Shown here one piece after another: positions 1 to 20,052 of a DNA stretch of 20,052 bases. The DNA comes from a virus (Duplodnaviria; Heunggongvirae; Uroviricota; Caudoviricetes), in the IMG/VR virus record IMGVR_UViG_2534681705_000013, positions 1 to 20,052 of that record. One strand, written 5' to 3'. Position 1 is the stretch's first letter, and each line of letters starts with the position of its first letter. The notes below the pieces were generated by a model that saw only the letters and a list, made by a program, of their open reading frames with translations, had not been told where the DNA came from and ran no database searches. Made by a program: the position numbers and the translations under genes.

Positions 1-2
1 AT

Positions 3-865: not shown

Positions 866-895
866 TAAGTTTTATTATCTGGACCAAGGCTGTTT

Positions 896-3772: not shown

Positions 3773-3773
3773 C

Positions 3774-4819: not shown

Positions 4820-5049
4820 GGATGTACCTCCTGCACATCAGCCATGAGCATTTTACTGGCTGTTTCCAGCGCCTGGTCGGCGCTAATTTGCATGACAGCC
4901 AGTGAATGAGGAACGAAAGTCCCGGCATATTCTGTTTCACTGGTGGCGTGCTTATGCGCCCTGTCTGCAATAACAGGGATGTCAATAAGCGCATCCATCA
5001 GAGTTTTAATTACCGTAACAGTGGTATCTGAATAATGGTTATTACACAT
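4816..5049 (-). CDS. hypothetical protein
   Basis: ORF-track ORF 4816..5121; preferred start is ATG at 5049 (MCNNHYSD…), preceded by GGGAGG and overlapping the stop of the upstream Rha-domain gene (ATGTGTAA). Confidence 0.4.
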   Translation of the reverse strand: MCNNHYSDTTVTVIKTLMDALIDIPVIADRAHKHATSETEYAGTFVPHSLAVMQISADQALETASKMLMADVQEVHP

Positions 5050-5407
5050 GACGCGCCTCCCGTTGATTACAGCGGAAAGCGGTGTGACTGAGACTGGTTT
5101 CAGTTTCATGGAATGCTTCAATGCAGCTCTCGTAGTACCGCATTGTGCGCAGACTTAACCCAAGCTGAAGCATCATCAGGCCATCAAGGGTGATGTAATA
5201 ACCACGCAGGGAGTCACCATAGATGTGATAAGTACCCGGTATGAAATTGCGGGTAAAAAACTCGCGTGAGCAGTTCAGATACTCGATTTTGTCGACGATG
5301 TTCTGGTGCATGCGCTTAAAGTGGCAGGCAACATGCAGGGAGAAAATAACGGCCTTGCCGTTGACAACTTCAATTTTCAGGTATGGGGAAGTTGGGACTG
5401 TAGCCAT
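5042..5407 (-). CDS. phage regulatory protein, Rha family
   Basis: C-terminal 122 aa of ORF 5042..5833: KAVIFSLHVACHFKRMHQNIVDKIEYLNCSREFFTRNF…GDSLRGYYITLDGLMMLQLG…IEAFHETE matches the Rha-family pattern. ATG at 5407 is preceded by GGAGG. The in-frame upstream extension to 5833 has a TTG start and low-complexity composition. Confidence 0.55.
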   Translation of the reverse strand: MATVPTSPYLKIEVVNGKAVIFSLHVACHFKRMHQNIVDKIEYLNCSREFFTRNFIPGTYHIYGDSLRGYYITLDGLMMLQLGLSLRTMRYYESCIEAFHETETSLSHTAFRCNQREARHV

Positions 5408-5794
5408 GATGGCAGCCTCCGTATGCAATGGATAACTTCCACCACCGGAGGTTCCAATCTCACTGGTGGTGAACTGGACAGGGTTGGAACTACCGGCGCA
5501 TACGGAAACCGGCGAGCCTTTCGGCTCCCCTGCCCAGCCCACCATAATTCTGGCGTGCGTGAGCGCGGACGATAAAAAAGACGCTGGCGCGTCGTATATC
5601 GCCGTATGCAATTCCGGGGTTCCAATCCCGGCACCCGCTTTATAAGGTGCAGGGACAGTGTAACGTCCCGAAATTGCAGAATCAATATTTAGGCTTGAAA
5701 CATTCATATGCTTACTGGTATTTTTACTAACGCAAATGTTCTTGGATGTTACTGGCTTACTTCTCAGTGAAGTTGCCTTTACCAACGTTGAGCG

Positions 5795-5822
5795 AGCCGG
5801 GTCACTACCCGGCTTTTTTTTC
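5795..5822 (+). terminator. plus-strand intrinsic terminator inside the minus-strand operon
   Basis: 8-bp stem AGCCGGGT/ACCCGGCT, loop CACT, followed by a run of eight T on the plus strand. On the minus strand the hairpin is preceded by the A-run, not followed by U, so it is not a terminator there. Confidence 0.55.
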
Positions 5823-6570
5823 ACCGCTGCCAACCAATAACCTGAAATAACCCCATTTTCGGGTGATACCAGCGAGTCCCTCGCGGTTCTGCTTCCTCCA
5901 TAACCCGATAAAAAGCAGCCATAAACGGTTCCACAGCAACAATTGCGCGACGTGACAACAATCCGTCCGGCGTCATGAACTCATGGGTGTCTGTAGGAAT
6001 TTGATAGGCGTTCACCAGATTGCGGCATTTATCATCTGACAAACCGGTTTTTGCTTTCAGTTGGCGATATCCGGCATAGCCCTCACGAATGGTACCCCTT
6101 TTGATTTGCTCAACTGTTTCGGCAACATGGCTGACTTTTTCTTCCACCTGAGTGATCCGTTTCTGCTGACGAACGGCTTCAAGAGCCATCGCAGCAACCA
6201 TTTCGATTTCGCTCATTGGCTTACGGATCTGTTCTTCCAGTTCGCGCCAGCGATCTACCAGGCGAGCAGTGAATTCAGGGCAGAGCTGTGCGACGACAAT
6301 GATGCTGTCGCGTTTACCTTGTTCGCCTTCGAAGATGTAAGCACCTACATTTCGTTTTAATCCTAAGTTGTTGATTATTTCGAAATTCGCCATTGGCGCA
6401 CTTCGAATAATCCCCTTATCCATGAGCCTTTCAATGCTGCGCTTAACATCTTTGTGTTGGCTACCCACCAACTCTGCGATCTCAACGCTGGTCATGGATG
6501 CTTTGTCGTTAAAAATTGCGGTGTTCACTGCCATCTCCTTACGGATAAATTCTTTTAAGATTCCGCACAT
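5821..6570 (-). CDS. phage regulatory protein, Rha/antirepressor-like DNA-binding domain
   Basis: 249-aa ORF; MTSVEIAELVGSQHKDVKRSIERL… fits the Rha-type motif. Start is ambiguous: ATG 6570, ATG 6534, or GTG 6528 (the last has AAGGAG at 6-nt spacing). Confidence 0.55.
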   Translation of the reverse strand: MCGILKEFIRKEMAVNTAIFNDKASMTSVEIAELVGSQHKDVKRSIERLMDKGIIRSAPMANFEIINNLGLKRNVGAYIFEGEQGKRDSIIVVAQLCPEFTARLVDRWRELEEQIRKPMSEIEMVAAMALEAVRQQKRITQVEEKVSHVAETVEQIKRGTIREGYAGYRQLKAKTGLSDDKCRNLVNAYQIPTDTHEFMTPDGLLSRRAIVAVEPFMAAFYRVMEEAEPRGTRWYHPKMGLFQVIGWQR

Positions 6571-6647
6571 TCGTACTTATTGGTGCCGAACCTTCCTTCA
6601 GTTATCCTTTTGATCCCTATAAACAAAAGAACCAAAGGAGGTTCGAC

Positions 6648-6899
6648 ATGTCACAAAAAAACGATATTCCTGTTTTTCCTATTACAGCCTGGCAGGCTGG
6701 ACCATTGCCCGGTTATGGTGCGCTAGCATTAAAATTCCAGTACCTAGCTTCTCCTATGCAACCACTGGATTCAGCACAAGAAACTCAGTTCTTCGCGCTT
6801 ACTCCCGAAATGGCTGAGACTTTGATATCCGATCTGCGCCGACATATTGAGACGCTGAAAAAATCCGGTATTCACAGCCCACAAGAAAACAGGCATTAA
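6648..6899 (+). CDS. hypothetical protein
   Basis: 83-aa ORF with a strong SD (AAAGGAGGT) 6 nt upstream of the ATG; opposite orientation to the flanking minus-strand operon. Confidence 0.55.
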   Translation: MSQKNDIPVFPITAWQAGPLPGYGALALKFQYLASPMQPLDSAQETQFFALTPEMAETLISDLRRHIETLKKSGIHSPQENRH

Positions 6900-6929
6900 T
6901 CGAAAAAACGGTTGCCACATAATTTCTTG

Positions 6930-6962
6930 AAAAGCGTCGCGCACTGGCGCTTTTCATTTCTC
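6930..6962. terminator. possible bidirectional terminator between convergent genes
   Basis: AAAAGCG…CGCTTTT symmetric hairpin with an A-run before and a T-run after, between 6648..6899 (+) and the cro-like gene (-). Confidence 0.35.
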
Positions 6963-6983
6963 TACGATCAACAAGCATGCACC

Positions 6984-7193
6984 TCACTTCTCCTCCCCCG
7001 TGTGCGCTAAGCTTGGGTGTGTATATGGAATGTTCGGATCCAGATGGCAGAGAATGGCAACATCCTCCGGAACGCCCCGCGTTTTCCACTTTCCAACTCC
7101 CTGACTACCACGAGGCTTTCCTTTCTTTGGAAACCTACGGCCAATAGCGGCATTGGTTTTAAATTGAGTTTTTAATATTTCATAAAGGGTCAT
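6984..7193 (-). CDS. Cro/DicC-like small DNA-binding regulator
   Basis: 69 aa, basic; N-terminus LYEILKTQFKTNAAIG resembles Cro/DicC-type repressors; divergent from the cI-like gene across an operator-bearing intergenic region; GAGG 7 nt upstream of the ATG. Confidence 0.5.
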   Translation of the reverse strand: MTLYEILKTQFKTNAAIGRRFPKKGKPRGSQGVGKWKTRGVPEDVAILCHLDPNIPYTHPSLAHTGEEK

Positions 7194-7304
7194 TCTTTAG
7201 CCTCACACCGGATACTCTGTTATCCAAGAATGTTAAACGCGAGAATCCAAAGTATCAAGAAATTCTGTTACTTTAGTATCAACAGCCATGAAAGGAGAAG
7301 AAAA
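7194..7304. promoter_or_regulatory. divergent promoter/operator region (OR-like) between cro-like and cI-like genes
   Basis: Repeated half-site GTATCAA at 7252 and 7276, GATAC at 7211; 12-mer CCAAAGTATCAA at 7247 recurs exactly at 7986 on the other side of cI. Confidence 0.5.
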
Positions 7305-7961
7305 ATGAAGTCTTTAGGTGAACGCCTCATCAACGCACGACAAAAAGCTGGGTTAACGCAAGATGCGTTGGCTAAAAAAGCAGGGGTCACCAGAGTTGCA
7401 ATCAGTAAAGCCGAGCAAGGCCTTACAAAAAGTTTCAACGGTGACACCCTTTTTAAAGTCGCAGCTGCACTGCAGTGTTCACCGCAGTGGCTTCAGAACG
7501 GAGATGAAAAAGATAAGCATTGGGAAAATAATGTTAAGAGCTGCCCACAGAGAGACACAGCACACTCTTACCCTGTAATTAACTGGGTTCAGGCAGGATT
7601 ATTCGCAACCGCTGGTGATGACTACAACATGTATGATCAGGATAATTGGAGGCATTCTGTAAAATACGCTGGTGAGAGGGGGTTCTGGCTAGAAGTGCAC
7701 GGAGACTCAATGACTTCGCCCGCAGGAATAACATTTCCTGAAGGAATGTCGATCCTTGTCAACCCAGATAAAGAAGTTTTTTCAGGGTGTTACGTCATCG
7801 CCAGAAAAAAATCTACCAATGAAGCAACATTCAAAAAATATATTTCTGAAATGGGAAAGGCGTTTCTAAAACCCCTTAATCCACAATATCCAATCATAGA
7901 AATGGACAATGATTGCGAAATAGTAGGTGTTGTGGTTGATGCCAGGTGGGATATTTTCTGA
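7305..7961 (+). CDS. CI-like prophage repressor (N-terminal HTH, C-terminal S24/LexA-like peptidase domain)
   Basis: ORF-track ORF 7230..7961; true start is ATG at 7305 (AAAGGAGAAG SD). HTH LTQDALAKKAGVTRVAISKAE; C-terminal GDSM motif and lysine-containing region typical of self-cleaving LexA/CI repressors. Confidence 0.85.
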   Translation: MKSLGERLINARQKAGLTQDALAKKAGVTRVAISKAEQGLTKSFNGDTLFKVAAALQCSPQWLQNGDEKDKHWENNVKSCPQRDTAHSYPVINWVQAGLFATAGDDYNMYDQDNWRHSVKYAGERGFWLEVHGDSMTSPAGITFPEGMSILVNPDKEVFSGCYVIARKKSTNEATFKKYISEMGKAFLKPLNPQYPIIEMDNDCEIVGVVVDARWDIF

Positions 7962-8064
7962 CCAGACACAAAACACAAAAAGAAACCAAAGTATCAAAAA
8001 TCACTTGCTACATCTTGATACCTTAGTTACCATAAAACAAAGTTCGTAACTGAGGTATCATCTC
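7962..8064. promoter_or_regulatory. OL-like operator/promoter region for the plus-strand early operon
   Basis: CCAAAGTATCAA at 7986-7997 and inverted TTGATAC at 8015-8021 (17-bp spacing) immediately upstream of the next plus-strand gene. Confidence 0.4.
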
Positions 8065-8568
8065 ATGATCAATAAAGCCACAACTCTTGACTGTCTCGAA
8101 GAACTGAAAAACCTCGGCAGCCTCATTACGCTAATAGCAAAAGCAACACCAGATGCTACGCTCTCTAGCGATATAGAGTCATGCGCAGGACTGGCATGGG
8201 ATATGACAAATAGCATATCCAGAAAGCTATCGTCAGCAATGCTTTTACAGAACAAAAATTCTGCAATCAACAACCGTCTTCGCACCCAACGCGAAGCCTG
8301 CGGCTTAACAACCGCCGAACTCGCCAGGCTGCTCGATCTCGATGAAGAAATCATCATCCAGTGGGAGAGCGGAGAGTATGAACCAACTATCAGTATGCTT
8401 ATCCCACTGGCAAATATTCTTGGCTGCGATCCGATGTGGCTGTTAACTGGCGAGGTTACTCCTCCGGAGCAACCAAAAAGTGAGGAGCAGCAACACCATG
8501 ACGCATCTCAACAAGTTTGCTCCTTATCTCGCGAAGCTCTTCTACGGAAGAACCAATACCAATGGTGA
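8065..8568 (+). CDS. XRE-family HTH protein with the HTH in the C-terminal half
   Basis: 167 aa; residues ~85-140 (LRTQREACGLTTAELARLLDLDEEIIIQWESGEYEPTISMLIPLANILGCDPMWLL) are a classic XRE/Cro-type HTH; the N-terminal ~80 aa are unassigned. First gene after the OL-like region. Confidence 0.6.
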   Translation: MINKATTLDCLEELKNLGSLITLIAKATPDATLSSDIESCAGLAWDMTNSISRKLSSAMLLQNKNSAINNRLRTQREACGLTTAELARLLDLDEEIIIQWESGEYEPTISMLIPLANILGCDPMWLLTGEVTPPEQPKSEEQQHHDASQQVCSLSREALLRKNQYQW

Positions 8569-8696
8569 CATAATCGCCGCTTCGCCCCTCAAGGTACATG
8601 CGAACATTTTTATCAATCATTGCGGAAACAGTCTCAATATGAAAACACTTCTGAGACTCGCTATATAGCAGAACATATAAGTCAGCTGAGGAAGCC

Positions 8697-9062
8697 ATGA
8701 AAAAGTTCGAAAACATAACTGTTCTCCATGTTGATGACTTTGATTATACAAACCCGGAACTTCTCCCGGAGGTTGTAAAGGCAATAGATGTTGCCGATAT
8801 AGTGATTAGAGGAAAGAGAATTGTCAAAAACAGGCTCGCATGCACTTCAGGAGCAATGACAGAAACAACCTCACAACAAGATGATTATGAAGGCATTTGT
8901 CTGGAGCCGGACTCATTTGCGGTAAATGTTTATCATTTATTGCATGCAACACAGGTATTACATATGTCCAGTAATCACGAAACAAAAACACTTGGCAGCG
9001 AAATTCTGAATTTTGCATGTGAATATGCAAAATCTGCTGCCGAAAAAGAATTAGCGCAATAA
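8697..9062 (+). CDS. hypothetical protein
   Basis: 121-aa ORF with a GAGGAA SD upstream of the ATG. Confidence 0.5.
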   Translation: MKKFENITVLHVDDFDYTNPELLPEVVKAIDVADIVIRGKRIVKNRLACTSGAMTETTSQQDDYEGICLEPDSFAVNVYHLLHATQVLHMSSNHETKTLGSEILNFACEYAKSAAEKELAQ

Positions 9063-9243
9063 CAATAAATATTCCCTGAATGTTTATTACGGTTTTATCG
9101 CCGGGGATTGTTGCAACCTTTATTCGCAGGAGATTATGTTATGACTTTCCTGAAACATAAGGCATCGTATAAAACTGCCTGCCTCATTGCACAACATGGA
9201 GATTCTTATCTTCATATAGCCAGCCTGTATTTGCGCAAAGCAT

Positions 9244-9447
9244 ATGGGAGATAAGTCAATGGAAGAAAAACAACAAAACATAACACATAAAAAAGTAAGA
9301 GTGTTGCTAACCATTGAAAATGGTGAAGTAATTTACTCAAAACATCTGTTGGATAATGAATTCGTTGGTTGCATGGATACATTTCTGTGGATGGCAAAAA
9401 GAGCTGGCTACACGATTATTCCACCAGCAAAGGAGCAAACATTATGA
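9244..9447 (+). CDS. hypothetical small protein
   Basis: 67-aa ORF (alternative start ATG 9259 with GGGAG SD); its stop overlaps the start of the next gene (ATGA at 9444-9447). Confidence 0.4.
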   Translation: MGDKSMEEKQQNITHKKVRVLLTIENGEVIYSKHLLDNEFVGCMDTFLWMAKRAGYTIIPPAKEQTL

Positions 9448-10025
9448 ATCATTCAGAGTTCCGACCAGAAGTAACGCCACATGGCATAAAAATTGGTAAT
9501 ACAACCATTGATTATATTGAGGCCGTACAGCGGCTTAATGATGGCGAATTCGATAATCCATACTGGCACGGTTTAAGAATCATGCAATGTCTTGCCGAAG
9601 CTGATGATGCCGGATTGCTGGGAAGATTTTCAGTCGATCTGAAGGTTGCTCAGTGGCGCTGGCTGTATGTGATGAAGTTTATCAGTGAAGAGGAAGACAA
9701 GAACGGCACTATTGATATCCCTAACGATAACGGGACGATAGATCGCGCAGTTATTTACAAGGGGAAACATGGTTGCATAAGTATATACCCAGGACCACTT
9801 CGCATTGCCCTGCAAAACCATGTCGAATGGGGATTTATTGAAAAATATGGCGAAACTGAAGGCATGGGGCGAGTTCTGTTTCTCTATCAAAAAATGCTCA
9901 TCGCAGATCCTGATAATGGTTTCATTCTCTCTGCTATGGGGCGCGAAGGGCTTAAACTCCTTCTGGATGAAATGATTAACGACCTGAATACTCATGGTAT
10001 GCCAGAAGCGCCTGTGACACATTAA
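9444..10025 (+). CDS. hypothetical protein
   Basis: ORF-track ORF 9369..10025; preferred start is ATG at 9444 (AAGGAG SD, MNHSEFRPE…), 193 aa; translationally coupled to the upstream small ORF. Confidence 0.55.
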   Translation: MNHSEFRPEVTPHGIKIGNTTIDYIEAVQRLNDGEFDNPYWHGLRIMQCLAEADDAGLLGRFSVDLKVAQWRWLYVMKFISEEEDKNGTIDIPNDNGTIDRAVIYKGKHGCISIYPGPLRIALQNHVEWGFIEKYGETEGMGRVLFLYQKMLIADPDNGFILSAMGREGLKLLLDEMINDLNTHGMPEAPVTH

Positions 10026-10201
10026 ATATTAAGAAGAAAATAATTCTTCCGTTTTTTACTAACCGTTTATATGAAAAGCAACCGTGAATTAAACAGAGTA
10101 AAACTGATTTTAATCCTTGCCACAGTACTGACACTAACTGAAATCATTATTCTCTTTATTGCGCTGTCAGTCGGTTAAAAATATCTGGATACCACAGACC
10201 A

Positions 10202-10390
10202 ATGAGACTGTATTTCACAATAGTAATTTTACTGGCAATTATCGCATGCATTTACGGATTACTCGTTCCGTTCCTTATATCCATGAAGGATACGATAGCA
10301 GTTATTTCTGGCTTTGCACTGGCGTTTCTGACTCCGCCCTGCATTTATGCCATTTACAAGGGGCTTTCTTTCACTAAGGATAAAAGATGA
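10202..10390 (+). CDS. small hydrophobic membrane protein (two predicted TM helices)
   Basis: 62 aa, mostly hydrophobic; stop overlaps the start of the SPFH gene (ATGA at 10387-10390). Confidence 0.45.
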   Translation: MRLYFTIVILLAIIACIYGLLVPFLISMKDTIAVISGFALAFLTPPCIYAIYKGLSFTKDKR

Positions 10391-11214
10391 AAAAAAATAT
10401 TTTTGCTTTAGCCATTGTTCTGCCGACTATTGGCCTTGTCGGTTGCGATCGCGTTGAACCAGGTAATGTTGGCATCAAGGTAAATAAACTGGGCGACGAC
10501 AAAGGCGTCGGTGAGGTGGTCGGTGTTGGTCGCTACTGGACTGGCTGGAATACTGAAGTTTATATCTTCCCCACCTTCAAACAAATGAAGACCTACGATG
10601 AACCGTTCAGTTTCCAGATGAGTGACGGTACAACCATCGGCTATCACATTGGCGTGGCCTACAAAGTTGATCCATCCAAAGTTACCACGGTGTTTCAGAC
10701 CTACCGCAAAGGCGTGGATGACATTACAGACACCGACCTGCGCCAGAAGATCGCCGACGCACTCAACCGACTGGCCAGCAAAATGACCACTGACAAATTT
10801 ATCGACGGCGGCAAGTCTGAGCTGCTGGATGAAGCTCTTAAAGACATTCAGGCAGAGATGACACCTATCGGTATTCAGGTAATGAGCCTCTCATATGTGG
10901 GTAAGCCGGAGTACCCGTCAACCGTTATCGACAGCATTAATGCCAAAGTCACGGCGAACCAGAAAACACTGCAGCGCGAGCAGGAAGTTAAACAGCGCGA
11001 AGCGGAAGCCAACATGTTGCGCGCGGAAGCTGCCGGACAGGCTGATGCGATTCGCACAAAAGCCCAGGCCGAAGCCGATGCTATTCGTTTACGCGGTGAA
11101 GCTCTGCGCCAGAACCCCGGCGTTATGGAGCTGGAAGCCATCAATAAATGGAACGGCACACTGCCGCAATACATGACTAGCGGTTCTAATACACCATTTA
11201 TCCAGGTTAAATAA
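10387..11214 (+). CDS. SPFH/band-7 (HflC/stomatin-like) domain lipoprotein
   Basis: 275 aa; signal peptide with lipobox LVGC; core resembling band-7/SPFH proteins; C-terminal Ala/Glu/Arg/Gln-rich coiled-coil typical of the family. Confidence 0.8.
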   Translation: MKKNIFALAIVLPTIGLVGCDRVEPGNVGIKVNKLGDDKGVGEVVGVGRYWTGWNTEVYIFPTFKQMKTYDEPFSFQMSDGTTIGYHIGVAYKVDPSKVTTVFQTYRKGVDDITDTDLRQKIADALNRLASKMTTDKFIDGGKSELLDEALKDIQAEMTPIGIQVMSLSYVGKPEYPSTVIDSINAKVTANQKTLQREQEVKQREAEANMLRAEAAGQADAIRTKAQAEADAIRLRGEALRQNPGVMELEAINKWNGTLPQYMTSGSNTPFIQVK

Positions 11215-11254
11215 CTTATATGCCCGGCAGAACGCCGGGCTAAGGAAAAAGCAG

Positions 11255-11614
11255 ATGAATACCCAGAATACTCAACCGCAAATAATGAACTATGACCCGA
11301 ATCTGACGTTGTGCGGACGCATGGCAAAACAAACCGTTCGATTAACTTTCGGGCTATGGGAATACCGCGAAACATTCGAAGTCACTGTCGGCGGCAATCT
11401 GACCGGACTGGATGTTATCAGTTGCGCTATTGAAAGCCTGTACGCAACGCTGCCTTATGAAGAAGTCGAGGATGAGCGCGATATCATAGCCACCATTAAT
11501 ATCGGCGGACTGGAATGCAAGGATGAAAACCTGTCCGGAGAGCTCTGGCTTGCCGGGATGCTTATCTCAGCAGAAATTATCAGTATTGAACCCGCTACAA
11601 ACATACGGCTCTGA
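11255..11614 (+). CDS. hypothetical protein
   Basis: 119-aa ORF with AAGGAAAAAG SD; preceded by a GC hairpin at ~11222-11240. Confidence 0.5.
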   Translation: MNTQNTQPQIMNYDPNLTLCGRMAKQTVRLTFGLWEYRETFEVTVGGNLTGLDVISCAIESLYATLPYEEVEDERDIIATINIGGLECKDENLSGELWLAGMLISAEIISIEPATNIRL

Positions 11615-11645
11615 AGTTCTCACTATTCAGAGAGCAGGAGAAAAA

Positions 11646-11888
11646 ATGTTCGCTTTGATTAATCAAGGGCAACTGTATACCGACAGTGCCGGTTACCCGG
11701 TAAAAATTATTCGCTGCATAAACAACACTGTGTTGTACAGAAGAATGGATGGGCGAACACAATCGGTAAAAATAAACGATTTTAATGAACTGTTTGAACG
11801 GATCGATCACCAGGAATACCGACAAATTCTGGCAGAAACAGAGCAGGAAGCTCATCTGAAAAAATTACGGGCCATGAAAAGGAAGTAA
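11646..11888 (+). CDS. hypothetical protein
   Basis: Internal ATG of ORF 11523..11888 with an AGGAG SD (MFALINQGQLY…), 80 aa. Confidence 0.45.
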   Translation: MFALINQGQLYTDSAGYPVKIIRCINNTVLYRRMDGRTQSVKINDFNELFERIDHQEYRQILAETEQEAHLKKLRAMKRK

Positions 11889-11891
11889 AGA

Positions 11892-12038
11892 ATGAATAAA
11901 GCGTTTGAGCTATGGGTACGCCAGCGTTACGGCAATCGCTATGACCTGACGCGAGATGTTGACGGCTTCTACTGTCGTGAAGTTGTGAAACGAATGTTTG
12001 AAGTGTGGTGCCACTGCCGTGGGCTGAATGTTGTATGA
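11892..12038 (+). CDS. hypothetical small protein
   Basis: 48-codon ORF (MNKAFELWVRQRYG…) with AAGGAAG SD; below the ORF-track size cutoff; tightly packed between neighbours. Confidence 0.3.
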   Translation: MNKAFELWVRQRYGNRYDLTRDVDGFYCREVVKRMFEVWCHCRGLNVV

Positions 12039-12046
12039 GGTGAACT

Positions 12047-12256
12047 GTGGGGCTGGATTGCGTGCCTATATCAACCTACTGCCGCGACGCGGGAGAAACG
12101 GTTGATGCCGTTAACAAACGGATACAAAGAGGAATATGGAAAGAAGGGGTTCATGTATTAAAAGTCGACGGAGTTAAAGAACGCTGGGTCGACTTAATAG
12201 AGGTTTCAAAATGGGCAAGAAAGAACAAGGATTATTATCTCTGCCAAGAGGAGTAA
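12047..12256 (+). CDS. putative excisionase (Xis-like DNA-binding protein)
   Basis: 69-aa ORF with GTG start and GAGGTG SD; overlaps the integrase start by 46 bp, the usual xis-int arrangement in lambdoid phages. Confidence 0.45.
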   Translation: MGLDCVPISTYCRDAGETVDAVNKRIQRGIWKEGVHVLKVDGVKERWVDLIEVSKWARKNKDYYLCQEE

Positions 12257-13395
12257 CTATTCGTAAGCATAAAACTGCTTCAACACTAGTTATCACTTTC
12301 ACATATAAAGGGGTTCTTTGCAGGGAGCCCCTGTCTCGGCTTGAGGCAAATACACGTGGTATTAAATATGCTGAGCGCCTGCTAGGGGAGATACAAAATC
12401 AGATCGCCAGCGGAACGTTTGAATATGCGAAATATTTCCCCAGTTCCAAAAAACTGGAGTTATTCGGTGTAGTAAAGAAAACCAAAAATATTAAGTCCTA
12501 TCTTGATGAATACCTGAAAATTTGCGTGAACCGCAATCTGTCGCCGTCAACCATTGGCGGTTACGAAAAATGTCTATCAGCACTATCAGAACTACATAAA
12601 CTACATGTAACAGAATTGACGCCTGCGGTACTAAAAAATTGGATAGCCAGCCGAAAAACTAAGCTGAAAACAATCAGGAACAACCTGTCATTTCTGCGCA
12701 GCGCCATTGATGAGGCTGTAACTGATGGCCTGTTGACTATTAACCCGGTAACTCTTGTCAGCGCCAGCCGGTATCACGTGGTCGACAGTAAACCGAACGC
12801 CGACGATTACGAAGTTGATCCGTTTGCGCCTGCGGAAACCAGTGCAATATATCAGCACTGCAAGTATCAGGAATGGCAGAATCTGTTCCGCTTCGCCTTC
12901 AATACAGGGCTACGCAGCTCTGAGCTATGCGCATTACGTTGGACCGATATCGACTTTATAGGTAATACAGCGCACATACAGGCAGCCAGTGTCGTAGGCG
13001 TATTGAAAGGCACCAAAACAAAAGCAGGCACCCGTAAAGTGGAATTAAACAGTGAGGCTCTGGCGGCTCTGCAAGCACAAAAGCAATTCACATTCATGAA
13101 AAGCGAGTTCATATTCAGTGACCCCAAAACGAAAGAGCCTTGGGCGAACGCTGATGCAATCCGCAAAAAAGCATGGGTTCCCACCCTTAAAAAAGCCGGT
13201 GTCCGTTACCGTAACCCCTACCAGACGCGACACACGTTCGCCACGCGGCACATCAGCCAAGGTGTAAATCTATTCTGGCTTGCTGGCCAGATGGGCCACA
13301 AAGGACCGGAAATGCTGTTCCGACATTATGGTCGCTACCTTTCGGCCTATGATGGCAAAACGTCACTTGATAGCCATGCACAACATTTTACGTGA
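12211..13395 (+). CDS. lambda-family tyrosine integrase
   Basis: 394 aa; lambda-Int-like N-terminus (MGKK…LPRGV.IRK), catalytic-domain signatures (TGLRSSELCALRW, HTFATRH, LAGQMGHK…RHYGRY). Confidence 0.9.
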   Translation: MGKKEQGLLSLPRGVTIRKHKTASTLVITFTYKGVLCREPLSRLEANTRGIKYAERLLGEIQNQIASGTFEYAKYFPSSKKLELFGVVKKTKNIKSYLDEYLKICVNRNLSPSTIGGYEKCLSALSELHKLHVTELTPAVLKNWIASRKTKLKTIRNNLSFLRSAIDEAVTDGLLTINPVTLVSASRYHVVDSKPNADDYEVDPFAPAETSAIYQHCKYQEWQNLFRFAFNTGLRSSELCALRWTDIDFIGNTAHIQAASVVGVLKGTKTKAGTRKVELNSEALAALQAQKQFTFMKSEFIFSDPKTKEPWANADAIRKKAWVPTLKKAGVRYRNPYQTRHTFATRHISQGVNLFWLAGQMGHKGPEMLFRHYGRYLSAYDGKTSLDSHAQHFT

Positions 13396-13760
13396 TCACC
13401 CTATGCGCGCGTTTCCAATCACAAACATAGCAAAACTGAAGACCACCTTGATTAAAAAAATAAGCTATCATCTATGTAATCAATAGGTAAAAAAACAGTG
13501 TAAACCACCAAATAAAACCTTAAAAATCATGATGTTACACATTAGCAAGAAATGATGCAAAAACATTTCACTTGACTTATTTTAATATTATGATTTTAAA
13601 GAAAAAATATTTTTTACAAGACAGTGTATGGACTGTGATAGTACTTGAAGAGTGGTAGTACAAGCTGTTATCCTTTGCTCCACGAATACAAGATTTTGTT
13701 GTTTTTTGATTTTCAATCACTTAGCGTATCAGCGGCGAAGCGCAATAACTGGAGTCCACT

Positions 13761-13799
13761 ATGAAAAAAACCCTAGCAGTAGGTTTTGGTGAAGGTTAA
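13761..13799 (+). other. 12-codon leader-like uORF (MKKTLAVGFGEG)
   Basis: ATG with GGAG SD at 6-nt spacing; lies 44 nt upstream of the 13844-13870 hairpin and the membrane-protein gene. Confidence 0.3.
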
Positions 13800-13843
13800 C
13801 TTCTGATCTTTACTATTTAAAAAATGCTCTCCATTAGCACAAC

Positions 13844-13870
13844 AAGACCTCCTCATGGAGGTCTTTTGTT
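13844..13870 (+). terminator. intrinsic-terminator-like hairpin 16 nt upstream of the 13886 start codon (possible attenuator)
   Basis: 9-bp stem AAGACCTCC/GGAGGTCTT, loop TCAT, followed by TTTTGTT; the stem pairs a GGAGG with CCTCC. Confidence 0.45.
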
Positions 13871-13885
13871 ATAGGAAACAAAGAG

Positions 13886-14809
13886 ATGGCAAGGATTATT
13901 GTCAACATCAGCGCAACAGTTTTCACCCTTATGCTCTTATTTAGGGCATTGTTCACTTACATTTATCCAGACACACTTCCTTTCGATATAGCTATCATCG
14001 ACTGGCTTGTCGTAGCTTCAGGTTCAGGTGCTGCCATTTCTTCTATCTTCTGCTTTATCAAAAAACGCTACCCCGATACAGCAGAATTTTTACCGATGTT
14101 CAGCACAATTTGTTATGTGATCGTGCTGATCGGATACGCAATATTAAGGTACACCCCCACATATCAAACCTCATTGTCAATAATGGTTACAGGGATGTTA
14201 GTTGGTATGGGATGGTGGATACAGTGCATTACTTCTGCAGCCAATACTCGCAGATCACATACCCTGAACATGATCATTAACACGCGAACCAGCCCGGAAT
14301 ACCAGAAACAATTAAGAAACAGCACCGCTTTCTATCGAGGTATGCGCTATGTACCACAAGAACTTTCAGAATGGCGATGCAACCCTGATAAAGACGAATA
14401 TAAGAATATGAAAGTACCGGAAGAATATCGCGACGCAATTAATGGGCTTCTATATATTCTTAACTACTTTGAGTTTCTTGCCCAAGGGATCAAATTCAAA
14501 GATTTAGATGACGGGTTACTAAAAGAATGTTTCTCAAGCTTCCTAAGAGGCATCGAGAGGCGAGGGTTTCACATGATCTTAGAGTCGCAAAAGCAAGACC
14601 CAGCAGCATTTGAAGGAATTATTTATCTTTCTAAAAAATGGAATGGTTCATCATTTGTAGAAACTCACCGATCAAACCCAAATACTGTTGAACTTGGTAT
14701 CCCTTATCCGTCAAACGAAATTGTTGAGAAAATGGTGAAGGGCATCCCCATCCTTGAGGAAGAACCAGCGCCAGAGTTACATCTTGCCTCCGAAACAGAG
14801 ACTCAGTAA
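13886..14809 (+). CDS. membrane protein of unknown function (about four N-terminal TM helices plus a ~190-aa soluble C-terminal domain)
   Basis: 307-aa ORF; hydrophobic segments in the first ~120 residues, charged C-terminal domain; AT-rich; between the prophage integrase and the tmRNA core fragment. Confidence 0.65.
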   Translation: MARIIVNISATVFTLMLLFRALFTYIYPDTLPFDIAIIDWLVVASGSGAAISSIFCFIKKRYPDTAEFLPMFSTICYVIVLIGYAILRYTPTYQTSLSIMVTGMLVGMGWWIQCITSAANTRRSHTLNMIINTRTSPEYQKQLRNSTAFYRGMRYVPQELSEWRCNPDKDEYKNMKVPEEYRDAINGLLYILNYFEFLAQGIKFKDLDDGLLKECFSSFLRGIERRGFHMILESQKQDPAAFEGIIYLSKKWNGSSFVETHRSNPNTVELGIPYPSNEIVEKMVKGIPILEEEPAPELHLASETETQ

Positions 14810-14895
14810 TGACACAAGAGGGATATCAATATGCACGTAAAATGCACTTAGCCAGTATCAAAACTTAATAACTAAATATATTCAATGAGTTATGC

Positions 14896-14934
14896 TATTT
14901 TCGGACACGGGTTCAACTCCCGCCAGCTCCACCA
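14896..14934 (+). other. ssrA: 3'-terminal fragment of tmRNA (ssrA): T-arm and acceptor 3' strand ending CCA; attachment-site core
   Basis: ATTTTCGGACACGGGTTCAACTCCCGCCAGCTCCACCA matches the 3' end of enterobacterial tmRNA as I recall it, with one mismatch in the T-stem; upstream sequence is protein-coding, so the tmRNA body is absent. Confidence 0.7.
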
Positions 14935-15139: not shown

Positions 15140-16381
15140 ATGGCAAGACAAACCAAACCTCTATCCGTTAAAGAAATAGAATCAGCCAAACCCAAGGAGG
15201 CGGACTACGTTCTCTATGATGGCGATGGCCTTGAGCTACTCATTAAATCCAGCGGGAGTAAAATCTGGCAGTTTCGCTACATTCGCCCTGTCACCAAGAA
15301 ACGAGCAAAGAAGAGCATAGGCTCCTACCCGTCAGTTACCCTTGCCGATGCCAGAAACTACCGTGCAGAGTCCCGCTCACTACTGGCTAAACAGATCGAT
15401 CCGCAGGAACATCAGCAAGAACAATTGCGCAGTTCGCTGGAAGCCAAAACCAACACTTTCCAACTCGTAGCTGAACGTTGGTGGAATGTGAAGAAAGCCA
15501 GTGTGACAGAGGACTATGCGGAAGATATCTGGCGCTCTCTTGAAAGAGACGTCTTTCCTGCGATTGGCGACGTTAGCGTTACAGATATTAAAGCTCATAC
15601 ACTGGTTCAGGCCGTACAACCGGTTCAGGCCAGAGGAGCACTGGAAACTGTTCGTCGCCTGTGCCAACGTATTAATGAGGTCATGATCTATGCCCAGAAC
15701 ACAGGGCTGATTGATGCTGTTCCCAGCGTTAATATCGGTAAAGCCTTCGAGAAGCCTCAGAAAAAGAACATGCCCAGCATTCGACCGGATCAGCTACCTC
15801 AGTTAATGCAGACGATGCGAACAGCCAGCATTAGCCTTTCCACACGCTGCCTGTTCATGTGGCAACTTCTTACTATTACCCGCCCTGCCGAAGCGGCTGA
15901 AGCTCTCTGGGAAGAGGTAGACATAGAAGCGCGAGAGTGGAAGATTCCTGCAGCACGCATGAAAATGAACCGCGACCATACTGTTCCATTGTCAGATGAA
16001 GCAATTGCGATACTAGAGATGATGAAGCCGTTAAGTGGAAATCGAGAATTTATCTTTCCCAGCCGCATCAAGCCAAACCAGCCGATGAACAGTCAGACCG
16101 TAAACGCATCGCTAAAACGCGCAGGTTTTGGTGGGGTGCTCGTTTCACACGGCCTGCGATCTATCGCCAGTACAGCCCTTAATGAGCAGGGATTTCCACC
16201 TGATGTTATTGAGGCTGCACTTGCTCATGTGGATAAGAATGAGGTTCGTCGTGCGTATAACCGTAGTGATTATCTTGAGCAGCGACGGCCTATGATGCAG
16301 TGGTGGGCTGATTTTGTGATGGCTGCAGATCACGGTAGTATGATTGAAGGAGGGATAAAGGCAATGCGGTTAGTTGGATGA
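15140..16381 (+). CDS. intA: P4/CP4-57-type tyrosine integrase
   Basis: 413 aa; N-terminus MARQTKPL…KPKEADYVLYDGDGLELLIKSSGSKIWQFRY characteristic of P4-family integrases; sits ~200 bp downstream of the tmRNA 3' end as CP4-57 intA does in E. coli K-12. Confidence 0.9.
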   Translation: MARQTKPLSVKEIESAKPKEADYVLYDGDGLELLIKSSGSKIWQFRYIRPVTKKRAKKSIGSYPSVTLADARNYRAESRSLLAKQIDPQEHQQEQLRSSLEAKTNTFQLVAERWWNVKKASVTEDYAEDIWRSLERDVFPAIGDVSVTDIKAHTLVQAVQPVQARGALETVRRLCQRINEVMIYAQNTGLIDAVPSVNIGKAFEKPQKKNMPSIRPDQLPQLMQTMRTASISLSTRCLFMWQLLTITRPAEAAEALWEEVDIEAREWKIPAARMKMNRDHTVPLSDEAIAILEMMKPLSGNREFIFPSRIKPNQPMNSQTVNASLKRAGFGGVLVSHGLRSIASTALNEQGFPPDVIEAALAHVDKNEVRRAYNRSDYLEQRRPMMQWWADFVMAADHGSMIEGGIKAMRLVG

Positions 16382-16461
16382 CATGTCGTAGCTAAAACCC
16401 GTTCTGTTTTTGGGTAGATTAACCTGAAGGTCTGCAATTTTAAATGACGCTGAAAGAAGTT

Positions 16462-16486
16462 AAACCCTGCTCTTAAGCAGGGTTTT
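16462..16486. terminator. hairpin between convergent genes (likely bidirectional terminator)
   Basis: 10-bp stem AAACCCTGCT/AGCAGGGTTT, loop CTTA, T-rich on both sides; between the intA stop and the stop of the large minus-strand ORF. Confidence 0.45.
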
Positions 16487-16519
16487 TATGATTTATTCTA
16501 ATTTTGGTTTTGAATCTTT

Positions 16520-18807
16520 CTATTTTAAATCAGCCTTTGCGGCTCGAATATCTGCGTTTTTTGCTGAGTATTCCCATTCGTCAGCGATTCTAAATAGCAT
16601 TGCAGAAGTACGGACGCAGTGGGGCATTGAATTTGCCCATTCTCGGTACTGCTCAGCTAATATCCTTTCTTGGTTTCCACCTTCGTAACGCATACGAGCA
16701 AATACCCCCCTTTTATTGTACCTACCAATTTGTATACCTTGCTCTAACTCATCAGAAGATAATATTTCAATGATGTGCCGAATTGCTTCATGTGGCCAGG
16801 AATTATCTACTGAGCTATTAGGGGCATGTGCCAGAATTTTTCCTATTACATGATCAGTGATTTCTTGGCGATGATGCAATTTTGCTAAATGGCGTACATT
16901 CTCACACCAATCTTCAAGTTTATCTTGATCAATTTCATTGTCTATCTGCCCTGGTAGTATTCGTAATTTTTCAAGTAATCTGTATATAGAAGTAGCTCTT
17001 TTAACTTCCAACTCCGATGGTTCTGTTTGTTCATCTTCGTCACTACGATATACAATACATATTGCTTCTATAAAAACCTCTGGCTTTTTCATCATTAGAC
17101 GATGCAGGATAAGTGGCTCATCGCTATCCGGAAAACAAGGCAAGTAGGTCATTTCTTTAAATGCCAAATCTGTTTCAGAAACATCGTTACGTTGTTTGAG
17201 TTCATCAAAAACTTTTTTTACATAGTACGATAGCATTGTATCAAATTGGATATCCTGGCTATTTATTTCTTTAACGACTATATCTAGAAGATATAAAAGT
17301 GTTGTAGATGGAATCTCAGAAAGGCGTTGATTTGCTGATATAATAGCAGCAAGACCCCGGCCCCTTTCTATATATTTATCCATAAGAACAAATAAATCCG
17401 AAGTTTTACCCATCATTGCAATGGGTTGTTTTTGCAACCAATATTTTTCGTTGATGTTATCTTCAAACCCTTCAATAATGCTCCATATCTCTTGTGAGTC
17501 TCTTAACGATGCTAAGATTTTCCCAGCCCTATCAGGGGTAATTTTAAACTGTTTAAAATACACTTTTATTTTATTAAGCCATTCAGCACCAAAGCATTCA
17601 ACACCATATTGCATTAACAACCCACAAACTTCATCAATATTTTTTTTGTTGTTAATAAGCATTACAAACAAATCATTTAATTTTTCTTCATCCAACGAGA
17701 GTGCTGATATATGCCTTGCTGCAATAAAAACATTATTAACTTGTTGAAAAAGGTCTTTCACCCCAGACAAACCTAAAGTAAAGTATATTTCCCTAAGTTT
17801 TTCACTTCGCATTTCTTCGACAGAAGAAAAAATTCCGCCAGCATTTTCAATTGACTCTTCAATATCAGAATCCCAATCATTGAAAATCCATAAACTGGCT
17901 CTAACCATGTCAATTGGTTTATAATTATCAAGTATTTTCGCTATTTTTTCCATAGACTCAAATTTAAATGCCCAGTTCGCATCTGAATATTTTTTATGGC
18001 GAGAATACTCATGACGCAAAGCCTCCCATACGATGAACTGATCCTCTTCAGTTTGTTGAGAAAGGCAAAGTTCAAGATGAGAAAGTGTTTCATCTATTGC
18101 ATTCTCAGGGAATGAGCTTAAATGAGAGATTAGGATTTCCCATCTTGTTGGGAGTATACCTGCAAGTTTAATTGCTTCTTGGATAATAAAGATTTGCCCC
18201 TCCCAAACAACGCCCCACGTTAGTTTTTCTACATCTTTATCCGACTCTCTGAACTTCATTTTTTGGTTTTGATCAGAGGTATCATGGGAGCGAGGAAGGA
18301 GATTTTGTAACAAACTCCACCCAATACTAGGAACAATAGTGATAATTTTTTTTATAATTGCATTTCTAACTTTTACTGGTGCCCATGTATTAGGAGACCA
18401 TGCCAGAAAAATGGTTCTTAAACTATTAAGAGGGCGATCTGAGTAAGTTCCTCCGGGATCTATTACAGCGAGTTTTGCAAGACAGATTGCAGCGCGTAAT
18501 AGATATGTTTGTTCCCAAGCCAAGGCTTCCAATGCCCATTTTAATCCATGATAATGACTTCGAGGAGTTAACAGCCCTTTATCTTCATTGAATATTGGAG
18601 CAATCATTTCCCCATTGCCCTTAAGCAATTGCTCAAGGGCATCAAGGAAAGGGCCAGGGGCAGCTTCTGCCAGCAGCGGAAGTTGATCTCGCAAACTAAC
18701 AAATAGTCGATGGTCGTTAGCAAGTCCCGGAATACTCTGAACTATTTTGTTAACAAAATCTTGGGGTGTCATACCAGTAACCCGGAATTCGGCCTGTTCA
18801 TGTAATA
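16520..18807 (-). CDS. large alpha-helical protein of unknown function, adjacent to or 5'-interrupted by IS3
   Basis: ORF-track ORF 16520..18823 (767 aa); the first 5 codons including the TTG start lie inside the IS3 left inverted repeat. Strongly AT-rich; Leu/Glu/Lys/Trp-rich; no catalytic motif recognised by eye. Native start is either ATG at 18775 or beyond the IS. Confidence 0.65.
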
Positions 18808-18872
18808 TGATCTTACCCAGCAATAGTGGACACGCGGCTAAGTGAGTAAACTCTCAGTCAGAGGTGACTCAC

Positions 18873-19172
18873 ATGACAAAAACAGTATCAACCAGTAAAA
18901 AACCCCGTAAACAGCATTCGCCTGAATTTCGCAGTGAAGCCCTGAAGCTTGCTGAACGCATCGGTGTTACTGCCGCAGCCCGTGAACTCAGCCTGTATGA
19001 ATCACAGCTCTACAACTGGCGCAGTAAACAGCAAAATCAGCAGACGTCTTCTGAACGTGAACTGGAGATGTCTACCGAGATTGCACGTCTCAAACGCCAG
19101 CTGGCAGAACGGGATGAAGAGCTGGCTATCCTCCAAAAGGCCGCGACATACTTCGCGAAGCGCCTGAAATGA
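18873..19172 (+). CDS. insE: IS3 transposase OrfA (HTH subunit)
   Basis: [53 protein letters not shown]… matches IS3 InsE from memory; the ORF track starts 9 nt earlier at GTG. Confidence 0.85.
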
Positions 19173-20034
19173 AGTATGTCTTTATTGAAAAACATCAGGC
19201 TGAGTTCAGCATCAAAGCAATGTGCCGCGTGCTCCGGGTGGCCCGCAGCGGCTGGTATACGTGGTGTCAGCGGCGGACAAGGATAAGCACGCGTCAGCAG
19301 TTCCGCCAACACTGCGACAGCGTTGTCCTCGCGGCTTTTACCCGGTCAAAACAGCGTTACGGTGCCCCACGCCTGACGGATGAACTGCGTGCTCAGGGTT
19401 ACCCCTTTAACGTAAAAACCGTGGCGGCAAGCCTGCGCCGTCAGGGACTGAGGGCAAAGGCCTCCCGGAAGTTCAGCCCGGTCAGCTACCGCGCACACGG
19501 CCTGCCTGTGTCAGAAAATCTGTTGGAGCAGGATTTTTACGCCAGTGGCCCGAACCAGAGTGGGCAGGAGACATCACGTACTTACGTACAGATGAAGGCT
19601 GGCTGTATCTGGCAGTGGTCATTGACCTGTGGTCACGTGCCGTTATTGGCTGGTCAATGTCGCCACGCATGACGGCGCAACTGGCCTGCGATGCCCTGCA
19701 GATGGCGCTGTGGCGGCGTAAGAGGCCCCGGAACGTTATCGTTCACACGGACCGTGGAGGCCAGTACTGTTCAGCAGATTATCAGGCGCAACTGAAGCGG
19801 CATAATCTGCGTGGAAGTATGAGCGCAAAAGGTTGCTGCTACGATAATGCCTGCGTGGAAAGCTTCTTTCATTCGCTGAAAGTGGAATGTATCCATGGAG
19901 AACACTTTATCAGCCGGGAAATAATGCGGGCAACGGTGTTTAATTATATCGAATGTGATTACAATCGGTGGCGGCGGCACAGTTGGTGTGGCGGCCTCAG
20001 TCCGGAACAATTTGAAAACAAGAACCTCGCTTAG
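19169..20034 (+). pseudogene. insF: IS3 transposase OrfB (DDE catalytic subunit) carrying an internal frameshift
   Basis: ORF-track ORFs 19169..19672 and 19615..20034 are two frames of one protein; the frame breaks near 19557-19561 (…ASGPNQS|GQETSR… instead of …NQKWAGDITY…), just before the conserved W-x-x-D-I-T-Y segment. Confidence 0.75.
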
Positions 20035-20052
20035 GCCTGTGTCCATATTACG

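What the first reader, a model, noticed from the sequence alone, without database searches (positions are those of the whole stretch)
16520..18823. Large AT-rich gene of unknown function as first cargo of the P4-type integrase island, with IS3 at its 5' boundary
Seen in sequence: a >750-aa minus-strand ORF, strongly AT-rich, convergent with the integrase across a hairpin terminator; its reading frame runs right up to the IS3 left inverted repeat at 18808, and the ORF-track start (TTG at 18823) lies inside the IS. The protein looks all-helical with no nucleotide-binding or catalytic motif I can recognise. Established knowledge: the cargo region next to P4-like integrases is a documented hotspot for anti-phage defense systems. 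Inference: a candidate defense or accessory gene whose 5' end or promoter has been truncated or rewired by IS3.
Basis: partly seen in the sequence, partly recalled or inferred. Interest (0 to 1): 0.7.

Follow-up and report, generated by a model that had tools for sequence, protein, structure and literature searches.

The report
IS3-truncated remnant of Avs8-like immune receptor
The long AT-rich ORF is the back 61% (the helical "sensor" part) of a 1,248-residue anti-phage-receptor-like gene that an IS3 element cut in two, so this copy is most likely a dead gene, but its intact form belongs to a very large, unannotated family distantly related to the known capsid-sensing defence protein Avs8.

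Summary
A 767-codon minus-strand ORF (16520-18823, about 36% GC) abuts the IS3 left end at 18808, and its TTG start lies inside the IS.

In other E. coli genomes the frame continues beyond IS3 (3-bp duplication ATA). Removing this IS3, and a second one seen in strain GE3, restores a clean 1,248-aa ORF. This ORF is identical to an uninterrupted gene (WP_000871158.1) in E. coli O104:H4 and others. The window keeps only codons 487-1248.

Profile-profile comparison shows end-to-end remote homology to Avs8A (PD-lambda-4A; 93.5%, controls 7% or less). Avs8A is the divergent neighbour of the intact gene.

Best reading: an inactivated Avs8-like pattern-recognition nuclease. It may correspond to the 'KpAvs8' with degenerate Walker motifs mentioned in a 2026 Nature paper; I could not test that.

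The parts
16520..18807 (-). 3' fragment (codons 487-1248 plus stop) of a 1,248-codon Avs8-like gene. It encodes only the alpha-solenoid sensor region.
   Evidence: Splicing out two IS3 copies in strain GE3 gives a clean 3,747-nt ORF. That ORF is identical to the uninterrupted WP_000871158.1 in O104:H4. AF2 model: pLDDT 89.8, all helical. Only generic HEAT/helical-repeat matches in PDB.
18770..18772 (-). First in-frame ATG of the truncated ORF, used by PGAP as the start of a 750-aa 'hypothetical protein'. It corresponds to internal Met499 of the intact protein.
   Evidence: Translation, annotation of the identical locus, reconstructed protein.
18805..18807 (.). Left copy of the 3-bp IS3 target-site duplication (ATA).
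   Evidence: In GE3 the same ATA follows the IS3 right end.
18808..20052 (+). IS3, 1,245 of 1,258 bp; the window ends 13 bp before the right end. The left inverted repeat is at 18808. orfA lies at about 18864-19172. orfB is split by a 1-nt deletion at about 19559/19560.
   Evidence: Alignment to the GE3 IS3 copy shows one deletion at IS position 752 and one substitution. ORFs 19169-19672 and 19615-20034 replace a single orfB. Annotated as an IS3-like element in identical loci.
16462..16485 (.). Bidirectional hairpin terminator between the convergent integrase and the Avs8-like gene.
   Evidence: 10-pair stem with 5 GC pairs, scored on both strands.
15140..16381 (+). P4-type tyrosine integrase of the ssrA island.
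   Evidence: Pfam Arm-DNA-bind_3, Phage_int_M and Phage_integrase. It lies directly after ssrA in GE3 and O104:H4.
14899..14934 (+). Copy of the last 36 nt of ssrA (1 mismatch). It marks the boundary between an upstream prophage and the integrase island.
   Evidence: Exact or near-exact match to the ssrA 3' end of GE3.

Best explanation
The window ORF is the 3' 61% of a gene that was split by IS3 insertion at codon 487.

The intact gene (1,248 aa; WP_000871158.1) encodes a single-chain immune receptor of the Avs/NLR type with three parts:
- residues 1-160: a PD-(D/E)xK (Mrr/FokI-like) nuclease effector;
- residues about 170-450: a STAND-like oligomerisation module whose P-loop has been replaced by a conserved acidic motif (A-D-S-P-D-E-V);
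- residues about 470-1248: an alpha-solenoid sensor.

By analogy with its remote homologue and genomic neighbour Avs8A, the sensor probably wraps a conserved phage protein, possibly the HK97-fold major capsid protein. Binding would drive oligomerisation, probably without ATP hydrolysis, and switch on the nuclease to destroy DNA and abort infection.

In this window the effector and the STAND-like module are gone, so the copy is almost certainly non-functional as a defence gene.

Shown: the truncation, the domain folds, the loss of the P-loop, the effector swaps and the homology to Avs8A. Inferred: the anti-phage function, the trigger and ATP independence.
For: Truncation:
- IS3 boundaries and target duplications ATA and CAT, and a clean 1,248-aa ORF after removing the IS copies.
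- An uninterrupted, 100%-identical allele in O104:H4 and others.
- 75 of 185 carriers have the intact insertion site and 110 are split there.

Folds:
- N-terminal model with pLDDT 90.7 and pTM 0.87.
- The C-terminal model is all-helical.

Motifs:
- D54, G55, W73, E74 and K84 are invariant in 40 diverse sequences.
- 0 of 219 relatives have a Walker A at the P-loop position, against 118 of 120 Avs8A sequences.

Modularity:
- A PNP_UDP_1 domain replaces exactly HMM positions 1-160 in P0458.
- A pAgo-type SIR2 (PADLOC E = 8e-88) replaces positions 1-361 in P0202.
- HTH domains are added N-terminally in others.

Homology to Avs8A (hhalign):
- Full length: probability 93.5%, E = 2.4e-7, 1,077 colinear columns.
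- Sensor: 94.7%. Sensor N-lobe: 96.5%.
- Reversed-template control: 0.6% or less.
- Block-shuffled controls: 7% or less for the full length, up to 28% for sub-regions, with scores of 38 or less against 73.

Context:
- The intact gene lies between the ssrA integrase and the published Avs8A/B (WP_000963924.1 and WP_000443183.1).
- Elsewhere it is a standalone gene in integrase/IS-rich islands next to Hachiman, RT-UvrD-OLD, SoFic and Gop-beta-cII-type genes.
Against: - No experiment bears on this family as far as I could find.
- PADLOC, Pfam and NCBIfam do not recognise it.
- The STAND-like module alone shows no significant profile similarity to the Avs8A NTPase. The STAND assignment rests on fold matches of moderate Z (7-8).
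- The canonical Lys of the (D/E)xK motif is a Gly (G76), so nuclease activity depends on K84 substituting for it, which is untested.
- N-terminal sequence similarity to Avs8A rests mostly on one 26-column block.
- About 72% of E. coli carriers have disrupted alleles. This could mean the gene is dispensable or costly.
- The trigger is pure analogy.
Confidence: 0.75

Rival explanations
1. The truncated ORF is still a working gene. A free sensor domain, translated from ATG 18772 and transcribed from an IS3-derived or internal promoter, would act on its own. It might act as a decoy or sponge for a phage protein, or as a modulator of the neighbouring Avs8.
For: The 750-codon frame is intact and 100% conserved in about 110 genomes with the same junction. 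The sensor is homologous to that of Avs8A, which lies in the same island.
Against: All alleles are at least 99% identical, so conservation reflects recency, not selection. Many genomes show further decay: a second IS3, deletions and frameshifts. No convincing promoter or outward-reading IS3 signal lies at the junction; the only match is 9/12 and lies inside the ORF. Met499 is an internal residue with no obvious ribosome-binding site.
Confidence: 0.07
2. The family is not an immune receptor. It would be a DNA-binding regulator or a housekeeping nuclease/scaffold; some members are named 'XRE family transcriptional regulator' or 'addiction module antidote'.
For: Several relatives carry N-terminal HTH, LexA or MerR domains. 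Some sources use such names. No defence HMM hits.
Against: The HTH is an add-on to the complete 1,250-aa architecture. Replacement of the nuclease by SIR2 or PNP effectors, patchy distribution in integrase/IS islands beside known defence systems, and homology to Avs8A are all typical of defence receptors.
Confidence: 0.1
3. The intact protein is an Avs-like receptor, but it senses something other than the major capsid protein. It may work as a pair with the adjacent canonical Avs8A/B, in the manner of sensor/helper NLR pairs.
For: Sensor identity to Avs8A is only about 15-16%. The divergent adjacency with Avs8A/B is kept in E. coli and in an 83%-identical relative. The P-loop is lost, as in some helper-dependent receptors.
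Against: Outside Enterobacteriaceae the gene stands alone, with no Avs8A- or Avs8B-like neighbour.
Confidence: 0.2

Closest known systems
Avs8 / PD-lambda-4 (Avs8A, WP_000963924.1): Mrr nuclease, P-loop STAND NTPase and repeat sensor. It senses HK97-fold major capsid protein and then degrades DNA (bioRxiv 10.1101/2025.07.02.662641; Nature 2026, PMC13581612).
   Same: The order and sizes of the domains are the same (1,248 vs 1,283 aa). The profile-profile alignment is colinear over 1,077 columns (93.5%; sensor N-lobe 96.5%). Both have an N-terminal restriction-endonuclease-fold domain. Both lie in the same ssrA island, immediately adjacent and divergent.
   Different: Identity is only about 15-16% and the PADLOC PD-Lambda-4_A HMMs do not hit. 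Walker A is absent in all 219 relatives, against presence in 118 of 120 Avs8A. No Avs8B-like partner gene is present. The nuclease motif is D...E-x-G...K rather than D...Q-x-K. The Nature paper mentions a 'KpAvs8' with degenerate Walker motifs. That may be this family, but no sequence was available to test it.
Avs1-5 and other antiviral STAND (AVAST) receptors, e.g. Avs4 (8dgf) and EfAvs5 SIR2-STAND (9jap).
   Different: No detectable sequence similarity. The P-loop is degenerate, so ATP-driven assembly as shown for Avs3/4/7 is unlikely to apply as such.
IS3 (IS3 family insertion sequence of E. coli, 1,258 bp, 3-bp target duplication).
   Same: Terminal repeats, length, orfA/orfB organisation and 3-bp duplications.
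   Different: The window's copy has a 1-nt deletion that breaks orfB.

Membership tests
Avs (antiviral STAND) receptors | Tripartite architecture: N-terminal effector, central NOD (NBD-HD-WHD), C-terminal repeat sensor | tested here: met
Avs (antiviral STAND) receptors | Functional P-loop NTPase (Walker A GxxxxGK[ST]) | tested here: not met
   0 of 219 relatives have it at the P-loop position. A conserved A-[DE]-S-x-[DE]-E motif sits between beta1 (216-220) and alpha1 (224-236).
Avs (antiviral STAND) receptors | Phage-protein-triggered oligomerisation and anti-phage activity | not testable with these tools
   No experimental data found.
Avs8 / PD-lambda-4 | Recognised by the PADLOC PD-Lambda-4_A model | tested here: not met
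   No hit for the reconstructed protein or for P0001. Only the SIR2 variant P0202 gave a marginal hit (E = 0.0018).
Avs8 / PD-lambda-4 | Homology of the sensor, or of the whole protein, to Avs8A | tested here: met
   hhalign of a 162-sequence family profile against 25 Avs8A sequences: 93.5% full length, 94.7% sensor, 96.5% sensor N-lobe. Reversed control 0.6% or less; block-shuffled controls 28% or less.
Avs8 / PD-lambda-4 | Two-gene operon with Avs8B | tested here: not met
   tblastn with Avs8B finds it only next to the true Avs8A (L001-L003), not next to family members in L004-L013.
Avs8 / PD-lambda-4 | Activation by HK97-fold major capsid protein | not testable with these tools
   Known for Avs8A. 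No complex prediction tool was available.
PD-(D/E)xK nucleases (Mrr/FokI-like) | Restriction-endonuclease core fold | tested here: met
PD-(D/E)xK nucleases (Mrr/FokI-like) | Catalytic D...(D/E)-x-K triad | tested here: inconclusive
   D54 and E74 are invariant, but the +2 position is G76. An invariant K84 lies in the next helix and could substitute.
IS3 | IS3 terminal repeats, about 1,258 bp, 3-bp target duplication, orfA/orfB with programmed frameshift | tested here: met
   The right end and the second duplication copy lie outside the window and were read in GE3.
P4-type integrase island at ssrA | Arm-DNA-bind_3 tyrosine integrase adjacent to the ssrA 3' end | tested here: met
   Pfam hits. 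The ssrA 3' copy lies at 14899-14934. The island follows ssrA directly in GE3 and O104:H4.
DSR1/DSR2-type SIR2-helical-repeat defence proteins (considered) | N-terminal SIR2 plus sequence match to DSR models | tested here: not met
   The E. coli protein has no SIR2 and no PADLOC hit. The SIR2 variant P0202 matches pAgo-associated SIR2 models, not DSR.

The most novel reading that the evidence does not exclude
The family is a previously undescribed, very large clade: about 4,900 clusters at 50% identity match the sensor. Its members would be STAND-derived immune receptors that have given up nucleotide binding altogether. The P-loop is replaced by a strictly conserved acidic motif, so the proteins would assemble or fire by an ATP-independent mechanism. 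They would be distinct from the published Avs8/KpAvs8 and might have their own phage trigger.
Probability: 0.25. Interest if true: 0.7.

Novelty: new variant of a known kind. Interest (0 to 1): 0.42.

Why it matters
For this window the result is mundane: the ORF is the leftover of a defence gene killed by an insertion sequence. Such events show how quickly immune genes decay in E. coli islands; about 72% of carriers have broken alleles.

The parent family is more interesting. It is abundant across Proteobacteria and is invisible to Pfam, PADLOC and NCBIfam. It has the full layout of an Avs/NLR-type receptor but has lost the ATP-binding loop that is thought to drive assembly of these receptors.

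If intact members protect against phage, they would be a natural test case for how STAND-like receptors can signal without nucleotide exchange. Defence annotation pipelines would also gain thousands of loci.

Tried and rejected
- Pfam, PADLOC and NCBIfam on the window ORF and on the reconstructed protein: nothing.
- Profile search of PDB sequences: nothing, E = 0.78 at best.
- The first hhalign runs against Avs8A, with a shallow family alignment, gave only 11-15% probability. A 162-sequence profile was needed.
- The STAND-like module alone against the Avs8A NTPase region: not significant.
- The afdb50 fold library was not available.
The inter-domain arrangement is therefore unknown.
- Supplementary tables of the Nature/bioRxiv Avs paper are not held, so the identity of 'KpAvs8' could not be checked.
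- A literature search for WP_000871158 found nothing.
- A DSR-like reading (SIR2 plus helical repeats) was considered and dropped.
- The idea that the gene is a third component of PD-lambda-4 was dropped, because distant homologues stand alone.

Full report
**1. What is in the window**

The window is E. coli DNA. Positions 16400-18900 match about 185 complete E. coli genomes at 100% identity.

- The minus-strand ORF 16520-18823 (767 codons from TTG) is real.
- It is AT-rich: GC 0.32-0.39 against about 0.5 elsewhere.
- It is convergent with a P4-type integrase at 15140-16381, which has Arm-DNA-bind_3, Phage_int_M and Phage_integrase domains.
- A hairpin at 16462-16485, scored as a terminator on both strands, lies between the two genes.
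- The IS3 left end (TGATCTTACCC...) starts at 18808, so the first 16 nt of the ORF, including the TTG, are IS sequence.
- The first in-frame ATG is at 18772. PGAP annotates a 750-aa hypothetical protein from it in identical loci.

**2. The ORF is the 3' part of a longer gene**

In strain GE3 the locus extends beyond the window (locus L001).

- IS3 ends at ...GGGTAGGATCA and is followed by ATA, the same triplet that precedes the left end. This is a 3-bp target duplication.
- The reading frame continues for 422 more codons. It then meets a second IS3 in inverted orientation with its own duplication, CAT.
- A further 65 codons lead to an ATG.
- Removing both IS3 copies and one copy of each duplication gives a 3,747-nt ORF with a single terminal stop, encoding 1,248 aa.
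- This is not just a construct. E. coli O104:H4 and other strains carry exactly this sequence uninterrupted, annotated as WP_000871158.1.

At the window's IS3 site, 75 of 185 carriers are intact and 110 are split. In an even sample of 60 of the 204 carriers:

| Allele state | Rows (of 60) |
|---|---|
| Full-length, uninterrupted | 17 |
| Two IS3 copies | 13 |
| Only the window's 3' piece | 14 |
| Other truncations | remainder |

All alleles are at least 99% identical. The window therefore holds codons 487-1248 of a recently acquired gene that is decaying through IS3 activity.

**3. What the intact protein is**

Sequence libraries are silent. Pfam, PADLOC and NCBIfam give nothing, and PDB sequences give nothing. 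The protein nevertheless belongs to a well-conserved family of about 1,250-aa proteins in Proteobacteria and beyond. phmmer of the window ORF against 1.84 billion cluster representatives finds 4,947 proteins at E of 1e-3 or better and 2,169 at 1e-30 or better. Most are 1,245-1,280 aa, with the match at about 500-1250.

AlphaFold2 with family alignments gave confident models.

- C-terminal model: 751 residues of the window ORF, pLDDT 89.8. It is an all-helical solenoid with only generic HEAT/importin/designed-repeat neighbours in PDB.
- N-terminal model: residues 1-559 of an 83%-identical orthologue, pLDDT 90.7, pTM 0.87.

The layout is therefore effector, then NOD, then repeat sensor, as in Avs/NLR-type receptors.

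**4. Two distinctive features**

First, the nuclease-like domain has invariant D54, G55, W73, E74 and K84 in 40 diverse sequences. The canonical Lys two residues after E74 is a Gly.

Second, the P-loop is gone.

- The typical 'GRE...L' lead-in is present (LLAGRE.Q).
- Between beta1 (216-220) and alpha1 (224-236) the sequence is A-D-S-P-D-E-V, conserved as A-[DE]-S-x-[DE]-E.
- None of the 219 relatives has a Walker A at this position, whereas 118 of 120 Avs8A sequences do.

**5. Modularity**

A family HMM matched against architectural variants shows three patterns.

- P0458 carries a PNP_UDP_1 (nucleoside phosphorylase) domain in place of exactly HMM positions 1-160.
- P0202 carries a SIR2 domain in place of positions 1-361. 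This SIR2 matches the Argonaute-associated SIR2 models of PADLOC at E = 8e-88.
- Several relatives add an N-terminal XRE, LexA or MerR HTH to the complete architecture.

Swapping nuclease, SIR2 and PNP effectors on a constant sensor is characteristic of defence receptors. It identifies residues 1-160 as the effector and the window's part as the sensor.

**6. Relationship to Avs8**

In the intact island the gene is flanked by the ssrA integrase on one side. On the other side, divergently, lie a 1,283-aa and a 248-aa gene that match PADLOC PD-Lambda-4_A and PD-Lambda-4_B end to end. Their accessions (WP_000963924.1, WP_000443183.1) are the very proteins characterised as Avs8A and Avs8B. Avs8A is a Mrr nuclease plus P-loop STAND that binds HK97-fold major capsid proteins and then degrades DNA.

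Shallow profile comparisons hinted at similarity. With a 162-sequence family profile (Neff 5.6), hhalign against 25 Avs8A sequences gave the following.

| Region | Probability | E-value | Note |
|---|---|---|---|
| Full length | 93.5% | 2.4e-7 | 1,077 colinear columns (5-1245 vs 7-1281) |
| Sensor | 94.7% | 5.6e-8 | |
| Sensor N-lobe | 96.5% | 7.9e-10 | |
| Reversed template (control) | 0.6% or less | | |
| 25-column block shuffles (control) | 28% or less | | score 38 or less against 73 |

N-terminal similarity is weaker (60-69%) and rests largely on one 26-column block. The NOD alone is not significant.

I conclude that the family is a remote homologue of Avs8A, at about 15-16% identity, that has lost its P-loop and has no Avs8B-like partner.

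**7. Genomic context elsewhere**

An 83% orthologue sits in the same arrangement with Avs8A/B and an integrase. More distant members are standalone genes with no conserved neighbour. They lie in integrase- or IS-rich variable regions near the following:

- Hachiman;
- an RT-UvrD-OLD cluster;
- SoFic, HigB and Gop-beta-cII-type genes;
- transposases;
- a P4-type integrase.

This supports a self-contained, single-gene defence function.

**8. Mechanism proposed**

Shown: truncation by IS3, the domain folds, P-loop loss, effector swaps and homology to Avs8A.

Inferred: the intact protein recognises a conserved phage protein through the solenoid. By homology to the Avs8A sensor this may be the major capsid protein, which I rate at about 40%. 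It then oligomerises through the STAND-like module without a canonical ATP switch and activates the Mrr-like nuclease, aborting infection.

The window copy lacks both the effector and the NOD, so it is most likely a pseudogene fragment. A residual role for a free sensor (decoy or modulator) cannot be excluded, but there is no promoter evidence for it.

**9. Known or new**

The Nature 2026 Avs paper notes in a figure legend that 'KpAvs8' has degenerate Walker A/B motifs, suggesting lack of ATPase activity. A Klebsiella fragment 94% identical to the window ORF exists (P0122), so KpAvs8 may be a member of this family. No sequence or accession is held, so this could not be tested.

Either way the family is best filed as a P-loop-less variant of the Avs8 kind. 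It fails the strict Avs criterion of a functional NTPase and the PADLOC Avs8 model, but it works, as far as can be inferred, like an Avs.

**10. Verdict**

The window feature itself is an IS3-inactivated gene remnant and is ordinary. The parent family is a large Avs8-like clade absent from the annotation libraries searched (Pfam, PADLOC, NCBIfam) and is of moderate interest.

Noticed in passing
window 1-14934: The first roughly 14.9 kb is the right part of a lambdoid-type prophage. It carries a DnaB-like helicase (1497-2888), a DnaC/IstB-like ATPase, a replication protein, Rha, a CI-like S24 repressor (7230-7961), an SPFH/Band7 protein (10387-11214), a tyrosine integrase (12211-13395) and a DUF4760 gene (13886-14809). 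It ends at a 36-nt copy of the ssrA 3' end (14899-14934). Prophage and integrase island therefore sit in tandem at ssrA. Only 2 of 5,426 genomes hold at least 80% of this stretch.
   Followed up: partly
window 19559/19560 (IS3 position 752): The window's IS3 copy lacks one A relative to the GE3 copies. This splits orfB into 19169-19672 and 19615-20034, so this copy probably cannot make transposase, unless it is a sequencing error.
   Followed up: partly
L001 24936-26193 (outside the window): A second IS3, inverted, with target duplication CAT, interrupts the same gene after codon 65 in many genomes. The two inverted IS3 copies bracket 1.27 kb of the gene. Other genomes show deletions of the bracketed or upstream pieces, consistent with IS3-mediated rearrangement.
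   Followed up: partly
L001 26857-31500 / L002 6890-11533 (outside the window): The divergent neighbours of the intact gene are the experimentally characterised Avs8A and Avs8B (PD-lambda-4). Two remotely homologous receptors, one with and one without a P-loop, sit head to head.
   Followed up: yes
window 13886-14809: A DUF4760 gene lies between the prophage integrase and the attachment-site copy. This position is typical of prophage accessory (moron) genes. Its function was not examined.
   Followed up: no
P0002 (911 aa, 2,059 member sequences): Another common E. coli allele spans the window's IS3 site intact but starts at residue about 338 of the full protein. This indicates a different upstream disruption in that lineage.
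   Followed up: no
L001 32044-33620 (outside the window): Further along the island lie an unannotated 256-aa gene, an HTH regulator, a truncated GTPase gene, another IS3-family element and YpjA/ypjCB remnants. The island is heavily eroded.
   Followed up: no
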